The notes under the pieces: generated by a model | The model's input: only the letters and a program-made list of their open reading frames with translations | What the model was told of the DNA's origin: nothing | The model's database searches: none | Position numbers and translations under genes: made by a program | Part shown: positions 17,392 to 51,700 of the stretch, piece after piece | How positions within the stretch are numbered: the first letter of the stretch is position 1 | Layout of the letters: every line of letters starts with the position of its first letter | NCBI GenBank assembly: GCA_039621445.1 | Contig: CP154954.1 | Location: 7,876,634-7,940,633, forward strand | DNA from: Euglena gracilis | Lineage: Eukaryota | DNA length: 64,000 nt | Reading direction: 5' to 3'

Positions 17392-17424
<33 letters not shown>

Positions 17425-17425
17425 A

Positions 17426-17456
<31 letters not shown>

Positions 17457-17467
17457 GCGCGCGCACA

Positions 17468-17550
<83 letters not shown>

Positions 17551-17563
17551 GCACACACACACA

Positions 17564-17622
<59 letters not shown>

Positions 17623-17635
17623 GCACACACACACA

Positions 17636-17702
<67 letters not shown>

Positions 17703-17715
17703 GCACACACACACA

Positions 17716-17779
<64 letters not shown>

Positions 17780-17801
17780 CACACACACGCACACACACAC
17801 A

Positions 17802-17864
<63 letters not shown>

Positions 17865-17877
17865 GCACACACACACA

Positions 17878-17952
<75 letters not shown>

Positions 17953-19433: not shown

Positions 19434-22400
19434 CACAGCACACCACCCTGCTTTGTCGACTGTGCAGGTCCGGCAGAGGCAGCTGATAGAGGCGCCGGAG
19501 TTGCGGAGGGCAGACTGGCTGCAGTTTGGGGGCCAGCAGCGGTCGCTGTTTGGGCGGAGCCAGTGCTTTGGGGGTTGGCAGCAACTGTGTGGGGGGAAGG
19601 GGGCAGGACGACAACCAGGGTTTCACCAAAATTGTTTACAACATGGATTCAAAAAAACCAATCAACCAAAAAAAATGCAAAAAAAATACCACCTCCAAAA
19701 TGCATTAAATTTAATAAATTAAAATTTTTATTTGACGTTTGGTTCGGAAAAATTTAATTAAATCATTAAATAATTAGTTAATAGGAAAAATTTATTTAAT
19801 TCCCACCCGAAAGCAGTCTGAACGTGGCCTAGCAATGTGTGGTACGTTGGCACACCAATACCAATGAAACTGAAAAAAAAAACTGCGACAAACCTCCCCA
19901 AACATGCAGACACAAAAAAAATACAAAAGATGTCGCGCATATTTTTTAAAAAGCATACTGAAAACCACTGTTTTTTTTTGCACCACTGTTTACATATTTT
20001 GTGCAAATAGTTTTTGTGTCTTTATTTGCACCTGAATTAATAAATTCTAATTCTGAATTAACAAATTGTAACTCAACTTTCCGTGGTTTGGGGGTCGGGT
20101 GTTTAAATGTTTTATTTTTCTTCAACCCAAACAATAAAAACAAGCGAAGCAATACAACCATTTCACATGATGTAAATGATATAACACAATACATCATTTC
20201 CAAAAAATCAAAAAAATATTGAGAAAAAATTTGTGTTTTCCCTCCCATGCCCGTCGGAACGCAACCCACCTTCCTGCGATGCAGAAGCAGCCTGGGACGC
20301 GGTGGCGGTGGACTGGATGGCGAGTGGGGCCGCCGTCAGGCTGGGCCCAGCAGTCTGCACGGCAGTGGCCGGGGCCGCCCCTGCAACACACAAGCAAACC
20401 GCTAGAACGGCGGTGGGCTGGCAGCGTCGGAGGGACAGTGGTGTGCATTGGAGGAGGGTCCTTTTCCAAGGCCAGGGGGCCACTGGGGTCCTTCATCCAT
20501 ATGGGTGAACAATTCTTCATCCGGATGGGGGCTCCACTTTTGGGGAGGTTGAATGGTGACAGAAAACTATTTTGCCAAGTCCCTCTGGAGGTGCCCACTC
20601 GAGCTGACTCGGTTAATGGGGATCTTTGTATACATAACCATGATAATACACACGCATATGCATACATAAAATATATAGATGGACATATAGGCACATACAT
20701 ACATACGTACATACATACATACATACATACATACATACATACATGCATACATACATACATACATACATACATACATACATACATACATACATACATACAT
20801 ACATGCATGCATACATGCATGCATGCATGCATACATACATACATACACACATACATACATACACGTGCACATACATATATACATACATACATGCACACGT
20901 ACATGCCACGGTTGGCGTTTATTTTTGTTTTTTTAAAAAGTGTAATTTTTTAAAAATAAACCAGTATAAAAACATTGTTTTTTGAAAATACAAATTTTCT
21001 TATATTTTCCTTAAAAAATGGGCCTTTTGGGGAAAGGCCCAAAACCATACCGTGGGAGACATGAACGAAAAAAATGATAATTTTGTTTTTGTGGATGTAG
21101 GACGCAGGGGTTTTTTTTAAGACCGGGGGGAGGGGGGGTCCCCCCACCCACCCACCCCCTGGGCCCCCCCCCCCCGGGGAGGGGGGTCCCAGGGGACCCA
21201 CAAAAAATGGCCGAAAAATCGCGAAAAGTGCTAAAAATAGCACTTTTTTGGCGCCTTCGGCGCCGAAAAGTATATCCCACCCCCCTCTGGGGGGACCCCC
21301 GGGGGGGGCTCGGCCGGACCCACCCGCCCTGCCCCCCCCCCGCCGGGGGTCCACGACTAAAAAAAACCCCTGGTAGGATGGCCTATATCCAAAAAGAACC
21401 TTCCAACTGTCGCTGAATCAAGGCATGGCACATTTGAAAAGCCGCAGTGTTTCAGAGGGTTTACTCCTCACTGTCTGATTGCCCTGGGTCCACTTTTTTG
21501 GATTTTTTTTTTTGCTGAAAACGTCACCCAAAGAAGCCTTCCTGCAGGAGGGCTTATTTTTCATTCAAGACCCATTTTATTCAGCACCTATTTTTGGATC
21601 CTAAAGGACAGCCTTTGGAAAGGAACCAAAATTTGCTTCAAGGAATGATTATTTTGCAACATGCACAAAATGGCATAAAAATCAAAATCACCCATTTTTG
21701 GGGGCAGTTTCACAGTGTGGGTCGGGTTTTTTTTTTGACCGGGGGAGGGGGGTCTCCCCACCCCCCACCCACCCCCTGGGGGATCCCGGGGGACCCACTC
21801 AAAATGGCCAAAAAATTTGCGGAAAACGCCAAAAATAGCACCTTTTCAAAAATTTTCGGCGCCTTTTGCGCCGAAAAGTATATCCCACCCCCCTCCGGGG
21901 GGATCCCCCGGCGGGGGGGCTCGCCAGACCTACCCCCCCTACCCCCCCCCCGGGTGCAAAATAAAAAAACCCCTGGTGTGGGTGCTTTCTGGGGGGCATC
22001 CCCCCCAAAAAATCCCAACGGGGCTCAAGTTTTGCAGTTAGATAAAAATCAGCCGGGGGATCTTTTGGGGGGGGTCTGATTTGGGGGGTACTTCGATGGA
22101 TAATGTCAGGCAATGTCCTGGAGGTGTGGCGTGGACACGGGGGTTTGCCGGCGACACATCACCCACATGGGGCGGGGGGAGGCCAGCTGGCAATCACAGG
22201 CACAAACGTGTTGCACTGGGATTGGGGGCAAGTCCTTCGCACCGAGCCTAGCACCGATGGGCAAAACGAAAGTGTCAGCCCTCAGACCCGCCACAGCACA
22301 GCCGGGGGCGTGGCACGCACCGCAATCGCCCCCATCAAAGCCGCACGCTTGCACGTTGCAGGCGGGGTCGCACTGCGAGTTGCCAATCCATGAGAACGGG

Positions 22401-25400
22401 CAGCCCGCCACGCACAGCGGCAGCGCTGGGAGGCGACGCAATTGGGTCGTGGCGCAGCTTCAACAATAACTGGGGCGGTTGCGCAGGAAGCCATTTGTTG
22501 TCGGCGGTTGTCATACGACTGCCGCCAACAACAAATGGTCAAATGCGGGGGGGGGGGGGCTGTATGGGAAAGATTGTTTCAATCCAGATGCAGGCGGGCA
22601 GGGGTCGACACACAGGGCGGCGATTCAGCACATTCTATGAAAAATCCACAAAAAAAGGCCGAAAGAAATGACCATAATTTGGCAAAAATGGGTCGAATGT
22701 GGGTGAAATTTTTTGGGGGGAACGGGTGTTTCGACTTTTCAATTTTTTCGACCCCAGTTGAGCCCCAGTTTGGCCCTTGCCCAGCCCTCAGGCTTACAAG
22801 TGGTCCTTGAGGGGTGGTCCTTGGGGAGAGGGGGGGAAAAAACCCAAAAATCCCGTCCCTTATGGACGCCTTGTCGACGACAGAGCACTGCACAAGGATA
22901 AAACGAAGGCGGAGGAAGGAAAGCCGGGGGAAAAAAAACACCACCCCCTTCCCAACTACCCAAAAAATTTTTCCGGGATTCCTGTCTTCCTGGAGGTGGG
23001 GTTGATCTTGGGGGACCCCTGGCCCAGCACCCGGGGAAGCTCGGCCTCAACTTGCACAGGCGAGAAGAGCGCGATATCAAATGCCCACACGTCGCACTGG
23101 CCACGCCAGGGATTCAGCCATGCAAGACGCGTGCTCCAATTGCACGCTGGCAGAGGTGGACTCAGCACACCGTTCGAAGAGGCTGGCAGGACGGTGGCTG
23201 CGGACCCCGACTGGGCGGTGGTGACTTGTTGGCAGCCCATTGCTCAAGGACCCCCGGTGGACCACTGGCTAGCCATTTTGCTGGACACTGGAAAAAATGG
23301 ACTGGCTAGACCCCCCTCTCCCCGGATCTCCCCTGGGGGGGATCGGGGGAGCCCCCCCCCCCCCCCGACTGGACTGGAAATAATTTTTTTCCGGCGGTGA
23401 TTCCGAGGTGGAAATGAGATTCTTAATGCATTTTTTGGCTGATTTTTTCAAAAATAAAATCCAAAAAAAGGCCAAAGATGGGCATCTTTGGCCATTTTGG
23501 GGGGTCCCAGAAATTTTTTCCAGTGATTTGTACGAAATTCTGATCACTGGAAAAACTCCACCAACCCTGCCAGCAGACCCCCCGGGGGGAGGTTCCACCA
23601 TAATTCCCAGAAGCCAAATCTGTAGAAGCTGCAGTCCAGCCCCCCCCCCCCCAGGGTGCTGTGAAACCTTAAGCAAAGGCCTGCTTGTTGGGCGGCTGCA
23701 GAAGTGGAGGTCGTGCCTGCGGAGGGGGAGGGGGAAGTGGTGCACACTGACAGGGAAAATTCTGAGAGGAAAGATCTGGCAAATTGTATGGGTTGGTGCC
23801 AAGCCTCCTTTTCAGAATCGGATTGGTGCCAGTGTGGTCTTCAGCTCAACCCCACACAGGCTATTGCGTTAGCACTCCAGGAGAGGGGGGCTGGCCATTT
23901 TGCTGGACACTGGAAAAAAGGAACAAACTAGACCCCCTGGGGAGGGGGTCCGGGGGTCCCCAAGACTGGAAAGAAATCTTCCTCCAGCGCTGTGCGCCAA
24001 TGTGGAAACGAGGCTTTTAATGTGTTTTTTTGGGATGATTTTTTTTGCTCCAAAAAGCCCAAAAATGGTCAAAAATGGGCATTTTTGGCACTTTTGGGGG
24101 ACCCAAAAATTTTTCGATGCTTCACGTTTTTCACTGGAAAAAAAATCACCAAGCCCTGCTGGATCCCCCCCCCCCGGAGTCCACTCATCAAATTTGGACC
24201 AGCTGCAGTCCAGCCCCCCCCCCCCCCCACAAGGGGGTTACCGCAACCCTTAAGCAATGGCCTGACCCCCCAGGTTTTGAAGAAAAAGTCAAAAATGGTG
24301 AAAATGAGGTCACCTCCCCAACCTGCAGGGTCCCATGCCAATCGGGAGGGTCTTTTAAAAAAGCCTGGTCTCGCAATGTGTGCCTCAAACGACCCTATTG
24401 TTATTCCAGCAGGCTGTTCCTTGGACAGACGAAGGGGGGGATGGCCCAAGAGGAAAGCAGTATCTCTCTCGGTGTCTACCCACACCTGCACTTTTAACAT
24501 CTGCACCGGTGCAAAACCCAAGTTAACAAAAGCAGGGGACCCGGATGGCTTTCTTTTTGGCCTTTCGGTCAATTCGATTTGTGAAGTTCGGAACTTTTTC
24601 CGAAGTTTTACACTGCCCCGTTTCACAACGAATACACAACAGCTGGGTAAGCACAAACTGGATGGTGCGCCCACACATCCAACTTTCGAAACCCCCTTTT
24701 GGGGAGCAACTATCCTGCCATCCGAGAATATTTGGTTTCAATGATGACACCGGACAGGGAATGCACGCACAACTCTGTCGGACTGACCACAGCGAGGCAA
24801 GATCGACCACACCGCAGTCGCCCCCGTCGAAGCTGCACGCCTGCACGTTGCACGCCGGGTCGCACTGCGAGTTGCCGATCTTGTCCAGGGATCCTTTGAC
24901 TCACCTCACCGCAACGTGCAAAAAAAAATTGCAAGCCTGGAGCTGGGGGGGGGAGGGGAGCCTTCAACAAATCCCTGACTCAAGAGAAAGGGCAGCCAGG
25001 CACACACAGTGGCAGTGCTGAGGAAAAGAAAACCCAACACGAATGCTGAGATGGGGCAGGTTGCCAGGGCTACAACAATGCTCGTTGGCAACTGTGGCAC
25101 ACTGCTTCAACGGTCCAGTGGGAAAAAATCACCAAAAATTTGGAACGCAAAAAGAAATCAATCAAAACAGCAGAAAATTTATGTTCCAGGTCACACCATT
25201 CACAAAATCAAATACAAATTTCTGTTGCCGATGGGGGGATCACACTGGAGAAAAGCGGGTGAATAAAATTTTAAAGTGGCAGTCTTGGCTGATAATAGAA
25301 AAATATGGGGGCCTCAGCCTGGAAAAATATTTGGAGGACCCAGAAAAAAATGGAGATTGAAGAAAGATTTAGGGTTTTAGAAACAAATTAATAAAATAGG

Positions 25401-26081
25401 TTACCAACATAGGAATCTGACTTTGGTCAAAACAAAGTCGGAATTTTCTCGCTCAAATAAAGAAATGCCAATATCCTCCAAATTGGCACCAGTTTTGTGC
25501 ACCTCATCGTGAAAATGATGGTTTTTTTTCGAATTATCGTGGGAAATTTTGGAGGAATTTTTTCCCTCCGGTTTTTCCCCATCCAATCTTCTCCATCCCC
25601 ACTGCTCCTCCCATGGTGGGAAATTAGACCGTTGTATTTTTTAATACATCAGACAACATCATATCTCTCCTGTTCTGAGACTCACCCCAACTATGTGCGC
25701 AGGTGTGGGTCATACTTCAATCACACCGTTTGTTGAAACTGTTGGGAGAATGATGGGCTGTGTGGCTGCAGGTTTGGTGCTGGAGCTCGAAGTCGAGCTT
25801 GCAGTGGCTGCGGGGGAATTAAACATGAGAATGCAACACAGAAAAATGAGTAAGTGCGACGTCACTGTTGATGGGCATGAACACATATTTACACGTGCGT
25901 GGAAAAACTCATCAACTCATCCAACCGTATCTGCTCAGTGGAACACCATGTCATGTCGCTCACCAAGCCCCAGGGAAAAAACCAAGAAACCAGTATGTCA
26001 CGATAAAAAAAAAAACTGGTCAACCCACATCCCCTAAATGGTGTCGGGCGACCCAGGAACAACAATACCAAGCGATGGCAC

Positions 26082-26137
<56 letters not shown>

Positions 26138-26143
26138 CGCACG

Positions 26144-26218
<75 letters not shown>

Positions 26219-29200
26219 ACACACATGCACGCAGGCACACACAGACACACACGCACACAAATGCACATGCATGAAAGCCAACGCAGCTGGCGGGAGGGGG
26301 TGGGGGGCACACTACCCTGGGCGGCCAGTGCCGGGGCAGCGGTGGCAGTGGCGGGTTGGGTGGCCAGGGCAGCCGCACCGGTGGCGGCTGACTGGGCGGT
26401 GGCTGTGGCTGCAACACACGGGGGTTTTGCCGGAGAAAGCATGCCACCCAGGCGTGTGGGGGGGCTGGTCTGAACCCCGGGGGGGGGGGGGTCAAAACCC
26501 CTCCTCTGTGCAAAAAAAAAAATCCGGCACAAAGCGCCAGAAATTGTTTCGACCGTGCAAAAAGCCCCAAAATAGCGTATTTGCACACTTTCTTGAAAAA
26601 AAATCAGACAAAACAAACACAAAAACAAACACCAAAATTTCTTCCCCGGCGCGAAGCACCAGGAAAAAAATGGATTCTTTTTTGGTCCCGGCCTCCCCTT
26701 GGTCCAAAGGGGGAGGTGGTCTGGACCCCCTCCCCCCACCCCGCAAAGCCACCGCTCGCGTAACCCCCTGCCCCCAGGATTATAACACTGATGAGGCGGA
26801 CCAACAATGAAATTTTGTGGAAGGGAAAAAGAAGTGTTCAATACGCAATCCAAGCACAGGAACTGAGGGAATTTTGTGCCTTTAGGAACCCCGAAAAATA
26901 CACAATTGCACATGAGCACCTGCAAATTAAAATTTGAAAAAATACACCCAACACACATTTCTGACGCATGCATAAATACATACATATGTGCAGGCGGACA
27001 AACATTCATACATACGTGCCTGTGGAAATACATCCATGTGTGCATACATACTGACATACAAACAAAGAAACGTTGGTGCATACATTGTGCATACATGGAT
27101 GCATACGACACACTGATATTTTGCATATATCTTAGGCGGCGCATCTCGCACTTAAATTTTTTTCTTTACAACGTGCGCAATTGTTCAAAATGACATTTTT
27201 TTACGAAAACCCTGAACCGCCAACCGCACCTGGTGAAACAGAAATATGTAGATGCACACCTCACGATACATGTTAGGAAACAGGAAGGTTTCAAAAAAGT
27301 TTCTTAACTAGCTGCCTGATATGTCTGGAGGGACAGCTTCATGTTCTTGTCTGTGAAACAGGTGGGTTGTGCACTCTGGCTGTTATACCCATGGGGTTTG
27401 GTGTGTCTGTGCAGCCTGTGATTGCTGGGTGTTGCACACCTGTTTGAGGGGGACCGACTTTTCACCATTAGGACAATGCGATGTGCAGTTAAAATTAGAT
27501 GATAATTGCGAGACAAAAACCTTTTCAGCATTATGTCCCTATCGATGGACTGAAATATGTGTCAACGCCGGCGCCAAAATCAAATTTTTTTCGGGGTGCG
27601 AAAATACGCACACCGACCAAAAGAAAGCTTGAGCGCGAGATGCGCCGCCTAAATATATATGACACCTGCACCAGAATGCTCTGGGCCAGTTGGTGCACAC
27701 CCTGTTGCGCAGCGGCCGGCGCCGGGGCAGGGGTGGCTGGGGCTTCCGCCTTGGGGACCACACTGGCCTGGGCGGGGGTCCCGGCTGTGGTGGTCCCTGC
27801 GAAGGCAAACGCCAGGGTCTTTGCTGAGTCTGAACATGGCGAAAGAGCAACCACGCACTGGTTTCCCGGGTGGCGATGCGGGAAAATCGAGTTGTCACAA
27901 ACCGACTGCGAATCTATCGAAACAAATCAGCCATCTATCAGGCAACTGCCAGCCGAAAAGCGGGGAAGGTGCACACACCGCAGTCGCCCCCGTCGAAGCT
28001 GCACGCCGGCACATTGCACGCCGGGTCGCACTGCGAATTGCCGATCCAATCCAGGGCTCTTTGACGGATACCATTGCCCACCAGGCTTGTGCTTACCGAC
28101 CGGGGGGGGGGGAGGGGGGTCGGTGGGTGCTATAGGGTGCCTGCCCCTAGCAGGCACACCTCCGGGGGGGGGGGGGGTCCGGGGGACCCAGAAAATTTCC
28201 ATTGAAAACGGAGTCGAGGGTCGAGGGGGGTGCCTGCTTTGGGCAGGCACCCCCAAAAAACCCTACCCCCCCCCCCCGGGTGGATGGGGTGCTATAGGGT
28301 GCCTGCCCCTAGCACCCCCCCCCGTGGGGTAGGCACTCGACTGAGCACAAGCCTGTTGCCCACCCACAGATCTTGGAATTCCCATTCAGCCCTGCTCTGG
28401 GGGGGGGATGGGGAGGTTGGTGGGTGAGCCCCCCCCCCCCGGAGGTGGGGTCGAGCCAAAGAAAATAAACCCCCAGAGGAGCTAACCCCTCTTTTCAGTG
28501 AAAAGAGATGGGGGAAATAAACCCAAAGTTAGCCATAACTGTCCAACGCCAACTGCAATTCACTGCAATTCTAAAAAGTTATGTGAATCTGGACAGTGCC
28601 CTTGCAATCGATATCCTGGCACTTGGCATTTTGATTTTGTGTGGCAATGAATACCAATGTCAGCTTGGGAGACAAGAACATCAGGTCAAAACCCAGAAAA
28701 ATGCGGCAAATAACACAAACTTGCATTCCCAGGCACACAACGACAACAACTTCCATGGATGGTTGAGGGCACTCCCAACAAATCCCTGATCCACGAGAAA
28801 GGGCAGCCAGCAACGCACAGCGGCAGGTCTGGGGAAACACATGCCGATGCAAAATGAAACGGAAAAAAACTGGCAAATGAGGCTACGGCTGTACCAATGC
28901 ACTTAATCTTGTATATTAAGAAAACTCCCCCCCCCCCAAATAACCTGGCGGGGCCCTTGCTTCTGGCAGTGGCCGAACAACTTGGCGGGGGAGGGGCAAA
29001 AAAGATGGTTCCAATAATTTGGCACCCCCCCCCCGGCAAAATTGGCAAGATTCCTTTACGGCGCTGAAAAGAGGTCTCAAATTACCTGGCAGGGGGCAGG
29101 GCCAAAAGTTGGTTCCAACAACCTGGCACCCCGCCACATCATTTGGGGGGTTACAAATAAAAATGTGTGTACCAATATATTTATAAAATGGGGGGGGCTG

Positions 29201-32200
29201 GTACATGGACCAGAGACAGCAACAGGTTGCCCGGTCCAGCCATGTGGTTGACGCGGCAGGGAGAAGGGCAGGCTGAGTGGCAGTGGCTTTGGGACCGGAG
29301 CCCGCGGCTTGAGGTGTTGCGGTGGCTGCAACGCGCTTCCCAAATGGTACCACTTGACAGAAATGCGCACGGGACTCACTGATGTGAATGTAAATGAGGC
29401 GGTGAGCGAGCCACATTTTCAGGCCCAGCAATGGAGACTCCAGCAGGTCCACACCCTCCTGTGCGGCAGCTTGAGCCGGGGTAGTGGCAGCAGCGGGTGG
29501 TACTGGGGTCGTGGCAGCCGCGGCGACGGGTTGTGCCGGGGTCGTGGCAGTGGCGGCTGCAGGTTGTGCCGGTGTCGTCGCAGCAGCAGTTGCGTCTTGA
29601 GCGGGGGTTGTGGCAGCGGCGGGGTGTACCGGGGTCGTGGCAGCGGGCGTGGCAGCGGGCTGAATGGCCGGGGCTGCAACACTCGGGCCGCTGCCAGCGG
29701 CGGCCGGGGTCGCTGCTGGAGCTGAAAGACGCCGGGCGAGGCAGGGAAACCGCATCGCGAAACGCAGGTCTCGGACGAGGCGTTCATGGGCTTGGATGTG
29801 GAACATGCAATCCAGAGAGTGAGTGCAGTGAAAATCTGCAATGAGTTCACCATCTTCACCCAGGCTAAACAAAATTAACAAATGCTGTCGAAAATCGGTT
29901 GAAACATACACCAAATTTTTTCGGTTTCCGGCGGGAAATGCCGGAAATTTGGGGGGGTTGCCCAGGAGGGGGGGGGGGGGACCCAGACCCCCCTCGGTGT
30001 GAAGGGGGGTCCCTCCCCCCTGGGAACACCCCCTGAAAAACCACCGCTCATGTGATACCCTGGGGCCAGGGGGCAAGGCTTCTTATATACCCAAACCCCG
30101 GGAGGTTGGGGGTACTTGCTATGAGGTGCCTGCCCATAGCAGGCACCCCCACCCCCCGGGCCAGGACCTTAGATTCACTTGCCATCTGTGTGAGCATACC
30201 TCCCCCCCCCCCGGGGGGGGTTCGAGAGTGGGTGGGCCCACCCTGGGGGGGGGGCGCAATATTTTGGAACAGCTGAAGGCCAGGCCGGAGATAATCTGAT
30301 CAGCGGTTTTGACGAATATTGGCTGTATTTTTGGGTGGGTGGGTGGTGGATCCCCGACCCCACGGGGGGGGGGGCAGCCCGGCGCCCCTTCGGGGGGGGG
30401 GGGGGAAACCGGGCCGTCTGAGGGCATTTCCCCCAAAAAATTGGCAGTCCGTGCAAAAACCCATTCCGGGGCCGGACCCATTCCGGGGGGGCCGGACCAA
30501 TTCCGGGATTCCGGGGGGGGGGGGAGACCTGTCCATTCCGGGGGGGACGGCCCCAGGGGGGAGGGCTGACAGAAGCCTGAGCACCACCCCACCCCAAAAC
30601 CCGACCCCCAGGGACACTGCCCTGCCTCCTGCCTGCCCATGTACCCCCACAGGGGTTTTTTTAAGACCGGGGGGTCCCCCCACCCACCCACCCCCTGGGG
30701 GCCCCCGGGGGGGGGGGGGTGGTCCCGGGGAACCCACAAAAAATGGCCGAAAAATGGCGAAAAGTGCTAAAAATAGCACTTTTTCGGCACCTTCGGTGGC
30801 GAAAAGTATATCCCACCCCCCCTCCGGGGGGACCCCCCCGGGGGGGGGGGGCTCAGCCGAACCCACCCACCCTACCCCCCTCCCCCCCCGGGGGTCCACG
30901 ACTAAAAAAACCCCTGTACCTCCATTCTGTGGGGTGTGAACGTCCGGGGGGCACACCCTGCTGCACAGCGGGCGGCGCCAGGGCGGGGGTGGCAGCCGGC
31001 TGGGCGGCCGGGGTGGCCGTCGAGGGGCTGGTGCTGGCAGCTGCAGTGGGGGCGCCAGCGGTGGCGGTCCCTGCGGGGGAAAAGCTCTCGGACACAACGC
31101 GGTGGGGTCAGGCTCCGATGCAAAGCCAGGTGGGGGGGTCGGACCCCTAACTTGAACAGTGGCACAATCTTTCAACCTGGCGCGAAGCGCCGGGCCAGAA
31201 AACTTGGACCCCCAAAACATTATGGGCACTTTTGGCAAAAAAAAATGTCAAAATGCAAAAATTTTCGGTGCAAAGCGCCAAAAGGAAAACTTTGACCTTT
31301 TTTGGGAAGGTCTGGCCCATCCTTGGCAGGTGGGGGGTGGTCTGTGGACCCCCCTCCAGGGGGACACCCCCCCCACGCCAAAACCCCGCACGCCCTCCCC
31401 GAACCCTGGGCTGTGGTCCGGAAAATGAAGGGCAGTAGGGAAGACCATCCCACCGCTCACCAAAAACTGATAGGCGGTCTCACCACAGGACGTATTCTGC
31501 TTCGCCTCAAAAACTTTCATTCACTCAATGGTTCACGATTGGCCCCAAACTCAATAATATGCCCCGAGAATATTATTTGGGGGGGTTATTTGCTTTTTTA
31601 GAATTGCATTCTGCCAGCATTCACCACTCACTCAATCAGGGCTCAGTGCCCAGACTCAGCACCATTCTCAGCATTGCAACTCAGCACTTCCAAGCACAAA
31701 TCCGATCACAAAAGAGACACTTGTTTCAAAAAAGGATTATCCAATTTACCGCGCTAAAGCTGTTCCCCTCTCACTTACTCTTTATACGGAAATATATTTC
31801 ACCTTCATGCCAGAAACGTGTTTGTTTTTCAGGCACAAAGGCATTATTATGATCTGAGGAAACCCGACAAAGTGAAGTTAATCAGAGCCACAATTCAAAA
31901 AAAAAGCTGGGTTCTTTGGGAAATCTGTCCTCTGACCCATTAAAATTTTTAAAACCCAACCCCAGAAACCCAAAAGAAATTGCTTCTCAGATCCCCCCCC
32001 AAAAAGCAGAGGGAACGCATGCATGAATGAATGCAAATCGAGAGCCACACGCACACACCACAAACACACACCACAATCACCACCATCAAAGCTGCACGCT
32101 TGCACGTTGCACGCTGGGTCGCACTGCGAGTTGCCAATCCACGAGTATGGACACCCGGCCACGCACAGCGGCTGATCTGGGAGGGTAAGAATAAGAATGA

Positions 32201-35114: not shown

Positions 35115-38100
35115 CACACACCCACACACACCAGGGGTTTTCTTAAGGACCCGGGGGGGGGGGGGCCAGCCTTCGGCTGGAAAAAAGGCTGCTGGCTGGA
35201 CCCCCCGGGGGGATGGGGGGGGAGGTGGGGTCCAGGGCTGGAGGGGGCTGGGCTGGGCTGGGTCAGTGAAAAAACAAAAATTTCCAAAACATTTTTGCCT
35301 TCTTGACATTTTGCTGGATGGAGCTAGATCAAGGCTGGGGGGCTGTGATCAAGCACCCATAGTCAAGCCCAAAAATTTCCCCATTTTAGGCCATTTTAGG
35401 TATAGGTGGGGGTTCTGAAAATCATAATTTTGCGTCATATTTGTCCCGAAAACTGCATCATAACGTGTGCAAACCTCATCTTATTCAGTAATACAGTGAG
35501 TGGACAGGGTTATTGACACCATTTGGACAAAATTGCTGAAACTGAATAATTATTGAAAATTTTTGAAAAAGCTATTGAAACTCAGAACAAAATAAGTACA
35601 TGGAAACTGAGGAAATCCTCAAACCTTGTATTGTGCTCAAAGTGTAATCCCACGCTTCACTAATCTGGACACTTCACTTTGTTTGCAAAAGCAAATTAAC
35701 ATGGAAAAAACCTTGTTCAGTTTGGTTCAGCAGAAGAAACAACTCATACCGCCCAATTTTAACGTGATGACAATTACACCATTTCTTCTTCAATGATATT
35801 TGATTTGTTTAAAATCACAAAATGATTCAATTTTGAGTTTGCACCCCGAAAAGCGGCGAGACGATAGCACTTTTTTTTTATTAACAACCAACAAAATGAG
35901 TCGAATTTCGAGATTGCCACCTGAAGGGCGGCGAGACGATAACACTTTTTTGTTCATTAAAATTTGGAAATACAAGGCTGTTGTTTAAAAGGTTTAATTG
36001 CCCTCAAAACATGCTTAAACCCTCAAAAAAACCTACAAAAAGCACTTTAGCTTTGTTTTTTTTTTGTTGCAAACCTTGTCTTTTTGCACAAAATGCAAGT
36101 CTGAAAAAACACTTGACAACCTTGCGGAAATCCGCCTGGTGGACAAACAAAACCTGCATGTCCCTCCCAGCCTGCTCCAAGCCGTTCCAGCCTCATGCGT
36201 CCTCCGCCCCCTGGGGATATCCAGGGAGCCCCCCCCCCCAACTGCCAAAAAATATTGGTAGTTTCCATAACATTGCCCAAAGTTTCAATAACTTTGTCCA
36301 AATATTTCAAAACCATGGGAAGCTCAACAAATCTTAATTCATACACAATTTACGGAAGTGAAAATTTTTCAGGAAAAAAAACGGACAAATACTAAAAGTT
36401 TTGATTTGCGCAACCAAAAAGCCCAAAATTATGAAAAATTATAAAAAATAAAATTATACTGGATCGTGATTTGAAGGAATCCCGGTACCTAAAGAATAAG
36501 CATACACATCTTTCAATTAAAATTTTCTCAAACATCTCTCACCTTTTTTTTCATCTTTTCTTTCCAGATTTTTCCCCACACTTCTAATTTGCACTGTTTC
36601 ATTGTTTGCGAAACAGAAATCGGTGCACGCCAAAAAAAGAGCAAGAAAAAGTAAAAAAAAAAGCTCTCCAAGCCTTAAAAATTCAGCTACCAAAAGAAGG
36701 TTGGCGGCCGTGGATTTGGGGACTTACACCATTATTAGCTGGGATAAAAAGTGGGCCTCGTGGGGCTGCGCTCCTCCACCAAATCCACTGTTTACCGTCC
36801 ACATTGACAAAAGACACCGAAAGTCATTACCTGAGTGGCTTCAGTTGTTCACAAAAAAATGCAACAAAATTATGCAACATATTTTTTTTTCCATTTTAGG
36901 ACATTTTAGGCCATTTTAGAAACCCCCACCTATAGGGGGGCAAGAAGTCATTTCAGACCATTTTAGGCCATTTTAGCTATAGGTGCTTGGCTGTGATGGA
37001 GGAAGCTGTGAGGAAGGAAAAAAATGCAGGGCTGGTGAGCTGGGCAGCCAAGTTGGCTGGCCAGCCTGCGGCTGGCTGGCCCGGCCTCTGGCCGGGCTGG
37101 ACCCAACTTTACTCGACCCCCCCCCGGGGGGGGGGGGCTCTCAGCCCGAATTTGGGCTGCTGGCTGGATTTGAGCTGCTGGCTGGCTGGACCCCCCCCCC
37201 GAAGGGGAGTAGGGTGCCCTCCGGCTTAAGGAAACCCCTGCACACAACACCCACCCACACACACCACAGTCGCCCCCGTCGAAGCCGCACGCTGCCACGT
37301 TGCACGCCGAGTCACACTGCGAGTTGCCAATCCAAGAATAAGGGCAGCCAGGTGCGCACAGCGGCTGATCTGCGGAGATGGACAGCCACCGTGGCTTGAA
37401 CGAAAGAAAAGGATTTTTTCATTTTTTTTTACAATCGATTTCTTTGTGAAACTTGGAATTCAACTATGGCAGGTGACGATGGCCATAGTTTCTGATTATA
37501 AGTTTATGTGGCGAACCGCATCCGTGAGTGCTGCATAATACAACACAGCGAAAGAAAAAAAAAACACAACCAAATTTCAAATTCTCCTGAATTTTGCCAA
37601 CTAAACATGGCATCTTAAAAAAAAACAATCTTCAGGAGGTTGTCTTCCACACAAAAAATCGTCCATTATCCCAGGCAACCTGCCCCACCCTGGAGAGGAG
37701 GTTCGGGATCAAAACCAGTCAGCCCCCCCCTGGGAAGCCCCCCCCCCCCTGGGAGAGATCAGACCACACCACCACGAAGCAACAGCACGAATGAGGCGGA
37801 CCTTGTGTGCCAGCCTGCTGGAGGGGGAGAGCGGGGGTCGTGGCAGGGGTGGCCGGCAGGGCAACCGGCACAATCGGGGGTTGGGTGGTCGCAGCTTTGG
37901 GGCCAGCTTTGGCTGTGGGCACGGGTGGGAGATGTCTGGGGACAGGGGGAGTGAAGCCGCTCACTGAGCGTTGGGAAACATTTGGGGACAAACATGGGGT
38001 TGACAACCATGCAAACATGCAAACCTTATCAGAAGAGGAGGTTCACAGCTGCATGGGAGGTCGCCTGCTTGGCAAGGTCATTGATTATAATCGTCTAGCC

Positions 38101-39680: not shown

Positions 39681-39747
<67 letters not shown>

Positions 39748-42700
39748 ACAGTCGCCCCCGTCGAAGCCGCATGCTGGCACATTGCACGCCGCGTCACACT
39801 GCGAGTTGCCAATCCAAGAATAAGGGCAGCCAGGTGCGCACAGCGGCTGATCTGCGGAGAAAAAAAACCGCCATTTTACCTTGAAAAAAAAAGCTCAATA
39901 AAATTTTGAGGTTTGAGGGGAAATGGGTGCCAAAATATGGAATTGGATTTCTGAGGTCATTCAAGAGGAAACGTACAAATTCTGGGTCCCCTCAGGGGGG
40001 GGGCAGTAGTTAAACAAGGGGGTTAGACTCCCCACTCGCATTTAAGAAGTGGGCCCAGACCCCAATTTGCATGTGTTTTCGCACTTCCCACGAGAGATGT
40101 CACGGACAAATGTATAATATGGAAGGCTAACTCCCGGCAGAGGGTTTGGGTTTCTTAAAAGGGATAGGGTCAGGACAAAGATTTAGATTTGTTTGGCCCA
40201 AAAGAGACATAAATTCGGCCTGAATTTTGGCCTAAGTTGTGGTCTAAATATGCCTGACCTCCTAAAACTCTAACCCAACACCTAAAACAACAAAAAAAAA
40301 AAAAAAAAAACTTTTCAGAAAATGGACCTTTCCATCTAGCTGTTGGCTCCCCATGGGGTCAGAAGTGAGATGCTGCCTTTCAAGCTAATTCTTGCCTTTC
40401 AAGCTAATTCTTAAGTTAAAAATGGCAAATCACACACAGAACTTCCGTGGGAGATGCAAAAATATCAGCAAAAGAACGGGTAGCCTAAAACACTCAGATG
40501 TGCAGCACAGCGCAAACCCCCCAGCATCCCAAATGTGGTGAGAATCCAAACCCCACCACCCCATCCCGTGGCGGGGAGCCCCCGTGACAAAAACTCAACT
40601 TTTGTTTCAGATGGAGAAAAGTTTTATTCAAGACCCAAACAGCACAAAGAGGACAAACAGCACAATTTGGAGCACAATTTGGGGAGGGGCAAACTGGGTG
40701 TATGCTCGCAGGAAACACTGAATAATTATCCAGTGAGACAAGGAACTGAAAATTGTGACATCTATGCGTATTCAAATAAAGAGAGTCTGACCAGCAAACC
40801 CAAGTTATCCTTCACAACTTCACAACTTTTTCCAACAACCCCACGACTTGGGCCGCGGCAGCCACACACCCTGTGGTGTTGTGGCAACCTGTACCGGGGC
40901 AGTGCTGGGGGTGGTGGCAGGCAGAGTGACGGGGGGCACTGCCTTTGGCCCGGTGGCTGGAGCGGGGGCTGAGGTGAGGACGGGCGAATGCAAGAAAGCG
41001 GCCGGTGGGCACAAATGGCAGGAACATCAAAAAAGCAATTGCATAACTTCTTTACCCTTGGAGACAGGGCGTCGCTCAGCAGCCTGGGGGGGGGGTCCAG
41101 CTCAACCATCTTTGCAATCATCTTTGTATAATGCATATGTGGAGACATAAGACATCTAACCCCCCCCAATTAGAAGCCCCCCGGGGCTACTATTCGGTCA
41201 CTCTGCGGAAAACCCGAGGGGGGGGGCTTCTAATTGGGTACCCTTTGTCTAAAGGAAAAATTTCGGCCGGCGGTCGATCCCGGGATCGAACGGGGTCCAA
41301 GTTTAAAAAATTGCAAGACGCATTTATTCTAGTTTTTGGGTGGATAGGCCATGTTTCAAGCATACTAGATATCACTTTTGTTCCCAATGTCGACCTTTTT
41401 CGTGGAGAATTTTCGAGTTTTTCACCATTTTTCAGAAATTTCTTTCGTCAAATTTCCCCACGGCTTCGCCCCGGGGGGGGGGGGGCTGTTATTTGGATTT
41501 TTGGCGGGAAACCTGAGGGGGGGGCTTCTATTTGGGGGGGGTTGTTATTTGGGGGGGGGGGGGGCTTCTAATTGGGGGGGGTTTATGTGTATATCAAGGA
41601 TTTCCCAGGGAGGTCCAGCTAGCCAGCCAGGTTCAAAAAAAAGTTGCTGGCTGGAACCCAAAAAACAGGCAAAAAAAACAAAATCCTGCCGGGTGGTAAA
41701 TCATCAGCCAACACTCCGAGGGACTTTAAAGAACCCTCAAAAACACTGCGGTTGGCCATCTTTGACCCTCTTTTGAAAAATTTATGGAACTTGCCCAAAA
41801 ATTGTTTGGCTCAGCCTGGCTGGGCTGAGCCGGCCCAATTGTCATACCATGAACCCATGGGGGGGGTCAACAGCCCGGCTGGGAGCTGCTGGGTGCAAAA
41901 AGTGATGGCTGGCTGGATCCCTGGTCCACTCTGGCTTAAGAAATCCCCTGGGTGTGTATGCCATGTATGTGTTCATCTGCATGTGTATGTGTGCGCGTGT
42001 ATCTATGTGTGTGTCTGTCGGCGCCGAAAAATATACCCCACTCCCCCTTGGGGGAACCCCCCCCCCCCGGGGGGGGGCTCGGCCGGACCCAGCCACCCTA
42101 CCCCCCCCCCCCCGGGGTCCACGACTGAAAAACCCCCTGCCTACAACCCCCGACCGGGGGGACCCAAAACCACCAAGAAAAACCCCCGAAGCGGCCTGCA
42201 AACCCCCCAGACCCAGAATCACCCACCCTGGCCTGCGGGTGTAACTTGTCTGGGCGGGGTAAAAAGGGGGCAATCGGGCGTATGGTGAAGCACATAACGG
42301 CAAAAACCCCCCAGGGGCGGCACAACATATGCACCGGTGCAACCACATGCAAACACGGGGGACGGGCAGCAATCCGTTCATGCACACAAACAGAGGCCCA
42401 AAAGTTGGAAACAGCCAACAAACGGATGCAATCGAGTCAGCAGTTTGTGTCAAACAGCAAGCATGCGGAGCAAGACAAAACAACCCCCTCGCCCAGGAAC
42501 CAACCAACTGACAGAAGTCCCCCCGGGATTCGGGGACACTGTTGCCCCCGGCGAGGGGGCCAGGGCCCGGCACTGCCCCCGAAAAACAGCACGGCAGTGG
42601 ATCGGGAACGGGGGAAGGTCGGCAGCGAGACCGGGGGAAAACCAGCAGCGACTAACCCGGAGGGCCGTGGGGAAAAAAACCTGATGCCTGATCCCTACAC

Positions 42701-48700: not shown

Positions 48701-51700
48701 GACTTGCACCCGAAAAGGGGTTGGCGGATAAAAGGGGTTGATTTTGTTAATGAAAGGGATAGGGTTAGGTCGACTTGCACCCAAGAATTATGGGTTGGCG
48801 GATAAAGAGGGTTTATTTTGTTAATGAAAGGGATAGGGTTAGGTCGATTTGCACCCGAGAAGGGGTTGGCAGATAAAAGGGGTTGCCAGATAAAAGGGTT
48901 TTTTTTGTTAATGAAAGGGATAGGGTTAGGTCTATTTGCACCCGAAAAGGGGTTGGCGGATAAAGGGGGTTTATTTTGTTAATGAAAGGGATAAGGTTAG
49001 GTCGACTTGCACCCGAAAAGGGGTTGGTAGATAAAAGGGGTTTTTTTTGTTAATGAAAGGGATAGGGTTAGGTCGACTTGCACCCGAAAAGGGGTTGGCA
49101 GTTAAAACGGGTTGATTTTGTTAATGAAAGGGATAGGGTTAGGTCGACTTGCACCCGAAAAGGGGTTGGCGGATAAAGGGGGTTTATTTTGTTAATGAAA
49201 GGGATAGGGTTAGGTCGATTTGCACCCGAGAAGGGGTTGGCAGATAAAAGGGGTTGCCAGATAAAAGGGATTTTTTTGTTAATGAAAGGGATAGGGTTAG
49301 GTCTACTTGCACCCGAAAAGGGGTTGGCGGATAAAGGGGGTTTATTTTGTTAATGAAAGGGATAAGGTTAGGTCGACTTGCACCCGAAAAGGGGTTGGTA
49401 GATAAAAGGGGTTTATTTTGTTAATGAAAGGGATAGGGTTAGGTCGACTTGCACCCGAAAAGGGGTTGGCAGATAAAGGGGGTTGGCAGAAAAATGGGGT
49501 TGATTTTGTTAATGAAAGGGATAGGGTTAGGTCGACTTGCACCCGAAAAGGGGTTGGCAGTTAAAACGGGTTGATTTTGTTAATGAAAGGGATAGGGTTA
49601 GGTCGACTTGCACCCGAAAAGGGGTTGGCAGATAAAAGGGGTTGCCAGATAAAAGTGTTTTTTTTTTTGTTAATGAAAGGGATAGGGTTAGGTCGACTTG
49701 CACCCGAGATGGGGTTGGCAGGTAAAAGGGGTTGATTTTGTTAATGAAAGGGATAGGGTTAGGTCGATTTGCACCCGAAAAGGGGTTGGCAGATAAAGGG
49801 GGTTGGCAGAAAAATGGGGTTTATTTTGTTAATGAAAGGGATAGGGTTAGGTCGATTTGCACCCGAGAAGGGGTTGGCGGATAAAAGGGGTTTTTTTGTT
49901 AATGAAAGGGATAGGGTTAGGTCGACTTGCACCCGAGAAGGGGTTGGCGGATAAAAGGTGTTGATTTTGTTAATGAAAGGGATAGGGTTAGGTCGACTTG
50001 CACCTGAAAAGGGGTTGGCGGATAAAAGGTGTTGATTTTGTTAATGAAAGGGATAGGGTTAGGTCGACTTGCACCCGAAAAGGGGTTGGCGGATAAAAGG
50101 TGTTGATTTTGTTAATGAAAGGGATAGGGTTAGGTCGACTTGCACCCGAAAAGGGGTTGGCGGATAAAAGGTGTTGATTTTGTTAATGAAAGGGATAGTG
50201 TTAGGTCGACTTGCACCCAAGAATTAGGGGGGGTTTCCCATGGACCCATGGACATGTAGGGTAAATTGAGTAACCCCCCCCCCCCCTAATTGTCACCCCC
50301 CCCCCTAATACTCGCCAGGGGGGTCAAAACGCTCCCGAGGGGGTGCCATACATATGTGGGGGGTCACGTTATTAAAATTTTTTAATTAAATTTTTACTTT
50401 ACTTAACAATTGACCTATTCAAACGAAGGGGGGGGGGCTTAAATTTCCAAAAGGTGGGGGGGGTAATGCGGATTTCTGGGGGTCGGGCCGACCAGGTCGG
50501 CATCACCCCCAGAGGTCGGTATCCCACCAACAGGGGTCGGGCCGACCACAGGTCGGGCCGACCAGGTCGGCATCACCCCCAGGATGAGCACCCACAGGAA
50601 TCCGCACGGAGCCCATTTATGGGATTGGTCTGGATGAGGTTTGGACAAATTGCAGGCAAAATAAATCTGAAACAGATTTTGGAGAAAGGAAAGGTGGGTT
50701 GCAAATGGGCTGCCCAGCCGGGGTTTGGTTCAAAAATTTGCTTTGATTTTCTATTCCAGTAAAACTGTTTTCCCCCGCTCCTTTGGCATTGTGAAGGTCG
50801 AAAGGTACTTGGAGCCTGTTTTTGCCGAGCCCAAACTTCTTTGTTGCAGGGTTCAGCTGCACTCCGCCGTCCACCGTGATGGCGTCTGGCTGAACCGAGC
50901 TTGCCACAGCGGTCCCCTGCACCACACCATAGCAGGTCGCTGGGATGCTGTTTCGCAGGTGTCCGGCCACTTGGACATTCCCATCCACACTGGGGACAGG
51001 GCTGCTCTCCAACCGGGGGAGGGGGTGGTTCGGGACGCGGGGGGGGACGCGGGGGGGGGGGGCACGGGGGGGGTACGGGGGGGGGAACTCGTCCAACTGC
51101 CCCAGCACATTTTCTTTGGCGTCACCCAAATTTGTGTGTCATTCTCCTTTGGTCGACCAAAAAATGTGCCCGGCCAGAATCCGGGACGCCGGGGGGGGAC
51201 GTGGGGGGGGGACGCGGGGGGGACGCGGGGGGGAACACCCCCACAACATGGACCCTAAAAATAAAAAAAAGCGACGCAAAAAAAAACACAAACAAATGCA
51301 AAAAAAACCACAAATTGCATGCGAAAACCTTTAGGAGCTCCCCCAGGATGTACACTTTTCCAGTGGGGGGGGTCGGATCGGGAGTGCCTTGGAGTGCCTG
51401 CCCAGGCAGGCACCCCCCCCCCCCCCCCCGGGGGGGGGTGGCACCCGACTGAAATACAGCCTGCTGCCGACGCAGCGCAGGATAGCCCTGTTCTGCACAC
51501 GACAGGTCCAGGTCTCCTCCTGTCTGCACACCGCCGCCAACGTACCCGCCATTGATGTGCAGGTCACCGCCAGTCACATGAGCAACCGGAGAGGCAGCTG
51601 GAGCAAGGATGGACACAGCACGGTACCAAGCGGCCCCGGCGGCGGCACAGGGCCCAGAGAGTGCACCACTGTACGGTGCCTGCTGGCTGCCAATGTTGGC

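What the first reader, a model, noticed from the sequence alone, without database searches (positions are those of the whole stretch)
24813..28828. Intron gain dated among LNR paralogues, with a decaying TSD
Four LNR exons are intact 105-nt units. LNR4 and LNR5 share a homologous nonconventional intron (CAGGGATTTGTTG...CAAAG..CCCTG) inside the Trp codon. In LNR4 the octamers flanking CAG/CTG are TCGTGGAT and GATTGGAT, against TCTTGGAT/TCGTGGAT/TCATGGAT in the intronless paralogues, consistent with a TSD remnant. In LNR5 the spliced-out parts have drifted (AGT, GACAA), which fixes the junction unambiguously. With the 23228 intron (perfect TSD) and the 50992 intron (no TSD left), one gene shows an apparent age series.
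Basis: partly seen in the sequence, partly recalled or inferred. Interest (0 to 1): 0.8.

Follow-up and report, generated by a model that had tools for sequence, protein, structure and literature searches.

The report
Shared nonconventional intron in LNR exons
Two of six repeated exons of a Euglena-type gene are split at the same spot by the odd, transposon-like introns already known from these algae, but the sequence cannot show when the intron arrived.

Summary
On the minus strand six Notch/LNR modules (PF00066) are encoded. Four are intact 105-nt exons with AG|..|GT borders. LNR4 and LNR5 are each split after nt 37, inside the Trp codon, by introns of 745 and 100 nt. Both fit every sequence feature of the published Euglena nonconventional splicing code (N3-CAG...CTG-N5|purine). 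Removing them restores exactly 105 nt.

The two introns share a 13-nt 5' end and about 16 nt at the 3' end, so a common origin is likely. The kind is already known, and so is the MITE-origin idea.

The dating claims do not hold:
- The exon tree is unresolved (AU p 0.41-0.55).
- LNR exons are far more alike than their unalignable flanks, which suggests concerted evolution.
- The "TSD remnant" is 5/8 in LNR4 (p=0.027) and 1/8 in LNR5; pooled 6/16, p=0.19.

The window adds one thing. It holds nine CAG...CTG elements of four families with 7-8/8 matching 8-bp target-site duplications. One is nested inside the LNR4 intron and one is the 23228 intron. This is direct support for 8-bp-TSD (hAT-like) MITEs as the source.

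The parts
28792..28828 (-). LNR4 exon, 5' part (37 nt), preceded by a conventional ..ttccccag| acceptor
28047..28791 (-). LNR4 nonconventional intron, 745 nt: N3 (GAT) + CAG..CTG core 28788-28052 (737 nt) + N5 (GATTG); the next exon base is G
   Evidence: the published code is in PMC12501133
28082..28355 (.). Nested 274-nt MITE (family B) inside the LNR4 intron. Its termini are CAGGCTTGTGCT.. (13/14 inverted repeat), and it has perfect 8-bp duplications TTGCCCAC at 28074-28081 and 28356-28363
27979..28046 (-). LNR4 exon, 3' part (68 nt), ending ..GACTGCG|gtgtgtg (conventional donor)
24981..25017 (-). LNR5 exon, 5' part (37 nt), preceded by ..ttttcctcag|
24881..24980 (-). LNR5 nonconventional intron, 100 nt: N3 (AGT) + core 24977-24886 (92 nt) + N5 (GACAA). 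A 10-bp terminal stem appears in both the MFE and the centroid fold
24813..24880 (-). LNR5 exon, 3' part (68 nt)
39747..39851 (-). LNR1, intact 105-nt exon
37265..37369 (-). LNR2, intact 105-nt exon
32072..32176 (-). LNR3, intact 105-nt exon
22321..22425 (-). LNR6, intact 105-nt exon
23228..23686 (-). '23228 intron': family-C MITE core 23233-23683 (451 nt) with perfect 8-bp duplication (CCAACAAG on the minus strand). It splits a probable Ser/Thr/Ala-rich exon and fits the N3/N5|R code
   Evidence: exon status inferred from the open frame only
23857..24264 (.). Second family-C copy (408 nt, 66% identical over 432 aligned nt to the 23228 element). It lies in non-coding DNA about 170 nt from the 23228 element; duplication 7/8
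50992..51493 (-). '50992 intron': CAGGGCT..AGCCCTG core 50997-51490 (494 nt). Flanking octamers match 1/8. It fits the N3/N5|R code and joins two open frames in phase

Best explanation
The window is nuclear DNA of a euglenid-type flagellate. A minus-strand gene encodes tandem Notch/LNR modules, one per 105-nt exon with ordinary AG/GT borders.

In LNR4 and LNR5 the exon is interrupted at the same nucleotide, TG|G of the conserved Trp. The interrupting sequences are nonconventional (NC) introns of the class that makes up most Euglena introns: three spacer bases, CAG, an interior whose ends pair with each other, CTG, five spacer bases, then a purine. The unknown, apparently non-spliceosomal machinery measures from the paired CAG/CTG. 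It removes the core plus 3+5 = 8 bases, which restores the 105-nt exon and the S-W-I-G-N reading.

The two introns descend from one insertion. It was copied to the second repeat either by duplication of the exon or by gene conversion between repeats. Since then the interiors have been remodelled: 92 nt against 737 nt of core, the latter including a later nested MITE.

The inserted element was most likely a MITE of the kind still visible around it: CAG...CTG inverted termini and an 8-bp target-site duplication, which is hAT-like. NC excision takes out exactly 'element + one duplication'.

Shown: the sequence anatomy, the fit to the code, the homology of the ends, purifying selection on both exon halves, and MITE families with 8-bp duplications. 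Inferred: actual splicing, single origin, MITE origin of this particular intron, and gain rather than loss.
For: Anatomy and code:
- 37+68 = 105 nt in both split units, with coordinates.
- N3-CAG / CTG-N5 / G is met by both. The 23228 and 50992 introns meet it too, with A as the purine. I read this off against the code in PMC12501133 (abstract, sections 8, 10, 11).
- The 3' halves match Pfam LNR profile positions 15-35 of 36 only, so the missing N-terminal part must come from the upstream piece.

Selection: LNR4 against LNR5 gives dN 0.026 and dS 0.32, with 6 synonymous and 2 non-synonymous codon changes. The 5' half has 4 syn/1 non-syn and the 3' half 2 syn/1 non-syn. Both halves are therefore read in the joint frame.

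Homology of the ends:
- 13/13 identical at the 5' end.
- BLAST alignments run 16 nt and 20 nt into the intron from the exon halves.

Terminal pairing: the LNR5 duplex is -30.1 kcal/mol against -17.3 +/- 4.0, and 2 of 300 shuffles are as good. The 10-bp stem is present in both MFE and centroid.

MITE source:
- Perfect 8-mers flanking CAG..CTG occur 9 times, against a mean of 1.07 (maximum 5) in 30 shuffles.
- Of 10 elements tabulated, six have 8/8, three have 7/8 and one has 5/8. Two of the 8/8 copies (11493, 7141) begin CAT and CAA rather than CAG.
- They fall in four families with 2-3 copies each. One is nested in the LNR4 intron.

Literature (passages): an 8-nt direct repeat was reported at a recently gained E. 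agilis gapC NC intron (PMC4770533).
Against: - No RNA evidence. Read laying returned nothing, and no same-species protein was found.
- The LNR4 terminal pairing is weak: -19.2 against -17.6 +/- 3.4, with 90 of 300 shuffles as good. The 765-nt MFE does not pair CAG with CTG.
- The whole-molecule energy of the LNR5 intron is not exceptional: z = -0.74, with 43 of 200 shuffles as good.
- The LNR4/5 terminus has no other copy in the window, so membership of a multi-copy MITE family is not shown for this intron.
- Its flanking octamers are 5/8 and 1/8; pooled p=0.19.
- The ML tree weakly prefers LNR5+LNR6 over LNR4+LNR5.
- No transposase ORF was seen in the 60 of 108 long ORFs scanned.
Confidence: 0.7

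Rival explanations
1. Ancestral intron, later lost. The founding LNR exon already carried the NC intron. One copy lost it precisely, and the intronless state spread to LNR1, 2, 3 and 6 by gene conversion between repeats.
For: Exon-limited similarity implies conversion among repeats: LNR1/2 differ at 4/105, yet the flanks of all 15 pairs give background scores of 10-19. Conversion from an intronless donor deletes an intron precisely. The tree cannot be rooted or resolved. A single change on the (4,5) branch can be read in either direction.
Against: The literature reports frequent NC intron gain and position turnover (PMC3935182, PMC4770533, passages). Elements of this type are demonstrably insertional in the same window. 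The 14 full-length LNR matches in unrelated metagenome contigs are uninterrupted at this site, but they are distant and some may come from organisms that lack such introns.
Confidence: 0.12
2. Two independent insertions of the same MITE family into the same target (TCNTGGAT) in LNR4 and LNR5, that is, a target hot spot.
For: Identical termini would follow from family membership. The interiors differ greatly, 92 against 737 nt, and are largely unalignable. The only interior match, a local score of 16 (0 of 200 shuffles as good), is probably the C-rich low-complexity stretch seen in the alignment; the aligned stretch itself was not printed.
Against: The insertions are identical to the nucleotide. 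Both share GA at the start of the 3' spacer, and both share the ATC (not ATT) codon right after the intron. No further copy of this terminus lies in 64 kb. The nine TSDs show no common target motif.
Confidence: 0.08
3. LNR4 and/or LNR5 are dead pseudo-exons. The inserts are unspliced transposon insertions, and the halves are skipped or absent from mRNA.
For: There are no RNA data. The terminal helix of LNR4 is weak.
Against: dN/dS is about 0.08, with synonymous changes dominating in both halves. All Cys and the DGGDC motif are intact, and the length is exactly 105 nt. All elements of the code are present.
Confidence: 0.07
4. The intron arose by double-strand-break repair with filler DNA, as proposed for the E. 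agilis gapC intron, and not by transposition.
For: PMC4770533 (passages) interprets 8-nt junction repeats in this way. The LNR4/5 element has no other copy in the window.
Against: Four multi-copy families with inverted termini and 8-bp duplications, at both non-coding and probable coding sites, are the signature of transposition. Filler DNA would not give recurring CAGG-N6-YTTAAG ends.
Confidence: 0.08

Closest known systems
Euglena nonconventional (NC) introns with the code 5'-N3CDG-/-CH'GN5-6|R-3' (Nomura et al., PNAS 2025, PMC12501133; earlier Milanowski et al. 2014, PMC3935182)
   Same: 3-nt spacer, CAG, terminal pairing, CTG, 5-nt spacer and a purine at the start of the exon are all present in the LNR4, LNR5, 23228 and 50992 introns. 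Conventional and NC introns are mixed in one gene. Junction direct repeats ('slidable' introns) occur, as in LNR4.
   Different: Nothing in kind. Excision is not shown here. The helix after CAG is short in LNR4 (5 bp + 4 bp).
Recently gained NC intron 4 of gapC in E. agilis ACOI 323, with 8-nt direct repeats at the junctions (Milanowski et al. 2016, PMC4770533, passages)
   Same: An 8-nt junction repeat at a young NC intron, as in the 23228 intron here (8/8).
   Different: There it is dated by strain polymorphism and attributed to break repair. Here the element belongs to a family with a second copy about 170 nt away, which points to transposition.
MITE-origin hypothesis and transposon-derived introns (introners) reviewed in Mob DNA 2024 (PMC11282704); also cited in PMC12501133 and PMC12621601
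   Same: Inverted termini, TSD-like junction repeats and insertion at new positions.
   Different: In the passages I read, the origin is still called unclear or plausible. The window shows actual multi-copy families with 8-bp duplications at non-exonic sites.
hAT-superfamily non-autonomous elements (8-bp target-site duplication; recalled knowledge, no call)
   Same: 8-bp duplication and short inverted termini beginning CAG.
   Different: No transposase was found in the window (60 of 108 ORFs). Superfamily assignment rests on TSD length alone.

Membership tests
Euglenid nonconventional intron (N3-CDG...CH'G-N5-6|R code) | No GT/GC-AG borders at the junction that preserves the reading frame | tested here: met
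   LNR4 borders are GA..TG and LNR5 borders are AG..AA. In LNR5 a GT..AG pair shifted by +1 exists, but it would create an in-frame TGA (read).
Euglenid nonconventional intron (N3-CDG...CH'G-N5-6|R code) | CAG at intron positions +4 to +6 and CTG at -8 to -6 (3-nt and 5-nt spacers) | tested here: met
   Met by both introns and also by the 23228 and 50992 introns. Only these spacer lengths give 105 nt.
Euglenid nonconventional intron (N3-CDG...CH'G-N5-6|R code) | Purine as the first base of the downstream exon | tested here: met
   G in LNR4 and LNR5; A in the 23228 and 50992 introns.
Euglenid nonconventional intron (N3-CDG...CH'G-N5-6|R code) | [quoted passage not shown] | tested here: inconclusive
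   LNR5: 10-bp stem, duplex -30.1 kcal/mol, 2 of 300 shuffles as good. LNR4: only 5+4 bp, -19.2 kcal/mol, 90 of 300 shuffles as good.
Euglenid nonconventional intron (N3-CDG...CH'G-N5-6|R code) | Excision from pre-mRNA (circular intron RNA, removal after conventional introns) | not testable with these tools
MITE with 8-bp target-site duplication (hAT-like) | 8-bp direct duplication flanking the element | tested here: inconclusive
   LNR4 5/8 and LNR5 1/8; pooled p=0.19. Met (7-8/8) by nine other elements in the window.
MITE with 8-bp target-site duplication (hAT-like) | Terminal inverted repeats | tested here: met
   CAGGGAT / ATCCCTG in LNR5 and CAGGG / CCCTG plus TTTG / CAAA in LNR4. These are shorter than the 12-14/14 of families A-D.
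MITE with 8-bp target-site duplication (hAT-like) | Multiple dispersed copies of the same element | tested here: not met
   Only the two LNR copies carry this terminus in 64 kb. The genome was not available.
Notch/LNR domain (Pfam PF00066) | Profile match above the gathering score | tested here: met
   6 of 6 pieces scored 38.3-43.9 bits against a cut-off of 21.2.

The most novel reading that the evidence does not exclude
The fixed 3-nt and 5-nt spacers of the Euglena nonconventional splicing code are the footprint of the 8-bp target-site duplication of a still-recognisable superfamily of hAT-like MITEs. Families A, C and D share termini of the form CAGG-N6-YTTAAG. NC excision removes exactly 'element + one duplication', so any exonic insertion is neutralised on arrival. 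On this reading the LNR4/5 intron is an old member of that superfamily, copied between repeats by conversion, and nested MITEs make NC 'twintrons'.
Probability: 0.45. Interest if true: 0.6.

Novelty: new member of a known kind. Interest (0 to 1): 0.3.

Why it matters
NC introns are the majority intron class in Euglena (71.8% in E. agilis, PMC12501133). In the papers I could read, their origin is still described as unclear.

This locus adds no new kind of intron. It is a compact natural exhibit of four things:
- An NC intron that is a family-C MITE with an intact 8-bp duplication.
- Sibling and unrelated CAG..CTG MITEs with 8-bp duplications in non-coding DNA.
- One MITE nested inside an older NC intron.
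- An old NC intron shared by two repeats.

Taken genome-wide, the equality '3+5 spacer = 8-bp duplication' would turn the MITE hypothesis into a countable prediction. The case also warns that paralogue trees of short, concertedly evolving repeat exons cannot date intron gain.

Tried and rejected
Nothing was laid, so nothing about expression follows.
- Whole genome: none is held.
- Same-species transcript proteins. The exon 51494-51868 query, searched against longer proteins, gave none. An LNR3 query gave 2 eukprot trypsin+LNR proteins of 55% and 73% identity in the best segment. These match only the LNR modules of the window in tblastn. They are no use for junctions.
- Metagenome scan. It returned 64 loci, the best at 70% identity. 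I examined 37 of the 64: none is a close relative, and the 14 full-length matches are uninterrupted. It gives no orthologue, so no polarity.
- Exon tree and AU test: uninformative.
- Flank homology to order the duplications: none for any of the 15 pairs.
- ORF-spanning test for exonic location of MITEs A, B and D: not discriminating in this GC-rich DNA.
- Rfam: 0 matches.
- Earlier findings of the scan: nothing relevant.
- A control using other trinucleotide termini was spoiled by the 46-50 kb satellite.


Full report
**What is there**

The window is eukaryotic, about 50% GC, and rich in microsatellites and poly-G/C tracts. A six-frame motif search found six D-x-G-D-C sites, all on the minus strand, each at the end of a Lin-12/Notch repeat. 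All 6 of 6 pieces tested hit Pfam PF00066 (LNR domain) at 38.3-43.9 bits, against a cut-off of 21.2.

Four units are single 105-nt exons with ordinary ..cag| acceptors and |gtg.. donors:
- LNR1 39851-39747
- LNR2 37369-37265
- LNR3 32176-32072
- LNR6 22425-22321

LNR4 and LNR5 are each in two pieces of 37 and 68 nt:
- LNR4: 28828-28792 and 28046-27979
- LNR5: 25017-24981 and 24880-24813

The pieces sum to 105 nt and re-create S-W-I-G-N. The break falls at TG|G of the Trp codon. The 3' pieces alone match only profile positions 15-35 of 36 of the LNR model.

**The inserts are nonconventional introns by every sequence criterion**

The published Euglena code is 5'-N3CDG-/-CH'GN5-6|R-3'. It requires pairing after CAG and before CTG, a strict 3-nt donor spacer and a 5-nt acceptor spacer. 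I took this from PMC12501133 (abstract and sections 5, 8, 10, 11).

- LNR4 reads GAT-CAG...CTG-GATTG|G.
- LNR5 reads AGT-CAG...CTG-GACAA|G.

In LNR5 the junction cannot slide. A GT..AG pair shifted by one base exists, but it would give an in-frame TGA (read).

Terminal pairing:

| Intron | Duplex energy (kcal/mol) | Shuffle control | Shuffles as good |
|---|---|---|---|
| LNR5 | -30.1 | -17.3 +/- 4.0 | 2 of 300 |
| 23228 | -29.0 | -16.7 +/- 3.3 | 0 of 300 |
| LNR4 | -19.2 | -17.6 +/- 3.4 | 90 of 300 |
| 50992 | -22.7 | -22.9 +/- 3.8 | 158 of 300 |

The LNR5 10-bp stem is present in both the MFE and the centroid fold. The total folding energy of the LNR5 intron is nevertheless unremarkable (z = -0.74). 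The 765-nt LNR4 fold is dominated by an internal palindromic repeat.

**Are the halves used?**

No RNA could be examined. Indirect evidence comes from selection. LNR4 against LNR5 differ at 10/105 nt, with 6 synonymous and 2 non-synonymous codon changes (dN 0.026, dS 0.32). Synonymous changes dominate in both the 5' half (4:1) and the 3' half (2:1). That is what is expected if both halves are translated in the joint frame, that is, if the intron is removed as predicted. This is inference, not observation.

**Homology of the two introns**

They share CAGGGATTTGTTG (13/13) at the 5' end. The pattern is found nowhere else exactly in the window: the other 3 matches have 2 mismatches, against 4.57 expected by chance. 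At the 3' end they share GTCAAAG..CCCTGGA.

BLAST alignments run 16 and 20 nt from the exon halves into the intron. Interiors are otherwise not alignable. The only interior signal is a local score of 16 (0 of 200 shuffles as good; the shuffles break homopolymer runs). It is probably the C-rich low-complexity stretch visible in the global alignment; one search did not print the aligned stretch. The cores are 92 and 737 nt long. A common origin of the intron in LNR4 and LNR5 is the simplest reading.

**What the window adds: real MITEs with 8-bp duplications**

The LNR4 intron contains a nested 274-nt element (28082-28355). It has 13/14 inverted termini and a perfect 8-bp duplication, TTGCCCAC. 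Relatives lie at 11493-11751 and 7141-7429, each with its own perfect 8-bp duplication, and a partial copy lies at 39188-39387.

A scan for CAG...CTG flanked by identical 8-mers gave 9 hits, against a mean of 1.07 (maximum 5) in 30 Markov shuffles. Among 23 CAG..CTG pairs with at least 12/14 inverted termini (2-9 in 20 shuffles), the flank match is bimodal: 8, 8, 8, 7, 7, 5, and 3 or fewer for the rest.

In all, I tabulated ten elements of four families:
- Six have 8/8: A1 4975-5290, A2 15321-15637, B x3 and C 23233-23683.
- Three have 7/8: C2 23857-24264, D1 21105-21372 and D2 30650-30916.
- One has 5/8: D3.
- Two of the 8/8 family-B copies (11493, 7141) begin CAT and CAA rather than CAG.

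Family C includes the 23228 intron itself. Families A, C and D share a CAGG-N6-YTTAAG terminus. The 3+5 spacers of the splicing code equal the 8-bp duplication, so NC excision removes exactly the element plus one duplication.

An 8-nt junction repeat was noted once before, at a recently gained E. agilis gapC intron, and was ascribed to break repair (PMC4770533, passages). The MITE idea dates from 2013 (PMC3935182, passages). It is still called a possibility in 2024-2025 papers (PMC11282704, PMC12501133, PMC12621601, passages). My searches found no paper in the held library combining euglenid, hAT, MITE and intron. Searches found none that reports such families. Subscription journals and preprint supplements were not visible. 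That hAT elements make 8-bp duplications is recalled knowledge, not taken from any call.

**Why the dating claims fail**

(a) The tree. The alignment has 33 variable sites. The ML tree is (1,2),(3,(4,(5,6))), with UFBoot 81 for LNR1+2 against the rest, but only 49 and 39 for the inner nodes. Constrained trees with (4,5), (5,6) or (3,6) differ by at most 0.42 lnL, with AU p 0.41-0.55. Only 2 parsimony-informative sites support (4,5), against 1 for (5,6) and 3 for (3,6). LNR4/5 are nearest neighbours by raw distance and by dS, but this is not significant.

(b) Concerted evolution. For all 15 pairs the 300-nt flanks give local scores of only 10-19. This includes LNR1/LNR2, whose exons differ at 4/105. 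BLAST similarity ends 5-25 nt outside the exons. The exons are therefore homogenised independently of their surroundings. The intron could have been copied between repeats, or erased from them, by conversion.

(c) The TSD remnant. LNR4 has 5/8 (binomial p=0.027) and LNR5 has 1/8; pooled this is 6/16, p=0.19. The signal is the 3-nt donor spacer GAT equalling the exon's GAT. The 5-nt side is 2/5. Both introns begin that side with GA, where a duplication copy would read TC.

(d) The age series. Introns taken to be of the same age (LNR4, LNR5) differ as much (5/8 against 1/8) as the proposed series does. Eight unconstrained sites staying intact only bounds divergence below about 0.3.

**Context**

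- No transposase was found in the 60 of 108 long ORFs scanned.
- An ORF at 45956-46399(-) approaches the pAdhesive_15 model (23.3 bits against a cut-off of 23.8). It hints that the LNR gene encodes an extracellular adhesin-like protein.
- Whether the 50992 intron belongs to the same gene is untested. A 3.2-kb satellite lies between it and the LNR exons.

**Verdict**

The inserts are ordinary members of the known NC-intron class and are probably of single origin. The gain-dating, decaying-TSD and age-series readings are not supported. The best by-product is clear in-window evidence for 8-bp-TSD CAG..CTG MITE families as the source of such introns.

Noticed in passing
4975-5290 and 15321-15637: Family A MITEs (316 and 317 nt). 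Termini are CAGGGCGGTCCTTAAG-like. They have perfect 8-bp duplications, GTTTGGCG and GAGAAATT, and there is no sign of coding context.
   Followed up: partly
21105-21372, 30650-30916, 34467-34707 (also 21724-21977, 42018-42139): Family D MITEs of about 267 nt with CAGGGGTTTTTTTAAG termini. Duplications are 7/8, 7/8 and 5/8. They sit in the presumed introns of the LNR gene.
   Followed up: partly
families A, C and D termini: Three families share a CAGG-N6-YTTAAG terminal architecture. The LNR5 intron 5' end (CAGGGATTTGTTGAAG) matches 5 of the last 6 positions.
   Followed up: no
46973-50218: A 3.2-kb satellite of 71/87-nt units (76-94% matches between units), strongly G-skewed. It lies between the 50992-intron exons and LNR1.
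   Followed up: partly
58771-59355 (+): This ORF matches the IFT52 GIFT domain (PF23355, E 3.3e-37). It is an intraflagellar-transport gene on the other strand, which fits a flagellate.
   Followed up: no
45956-46399 (-): This ORF scores just under the cut-off for pAdhesive_15 (ice-binding-like adhesive domain): 23.3 against 23.8 bits. It may be an upstream exon of the LNR gene.
   Followed up: no
39747-39851 vs 37265-37369: The LNR1 and LNR2 exons differ at 4/105 nt, but their flanking introns are unalignable beyond about 9-25 nt. This points to exon-limited gene conversion.
   Followed up: partly
24880-24981 (-): In LNR5 a GT..AG pair one base downstream of the nonconventional junction would give an in-frame TGA. 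It is a possible decoy or 'intermediate' configuration.
   Followed up: no
39690-39746, 26070-26240, 17300-18100: Long (GT)n/(CA)n and related microsatellites. One starts directly at the donor site of LNR1.
   Followed up: no
24871-24990 (-): In the LNR5 fold the last 5 nt of the upstream exon (UCUUG) pair with the 3' spacer and exon start (CAAGA). The 'drifted' spacer may therefore have been recruited to extend the helix across the junction.
   Followed up: no
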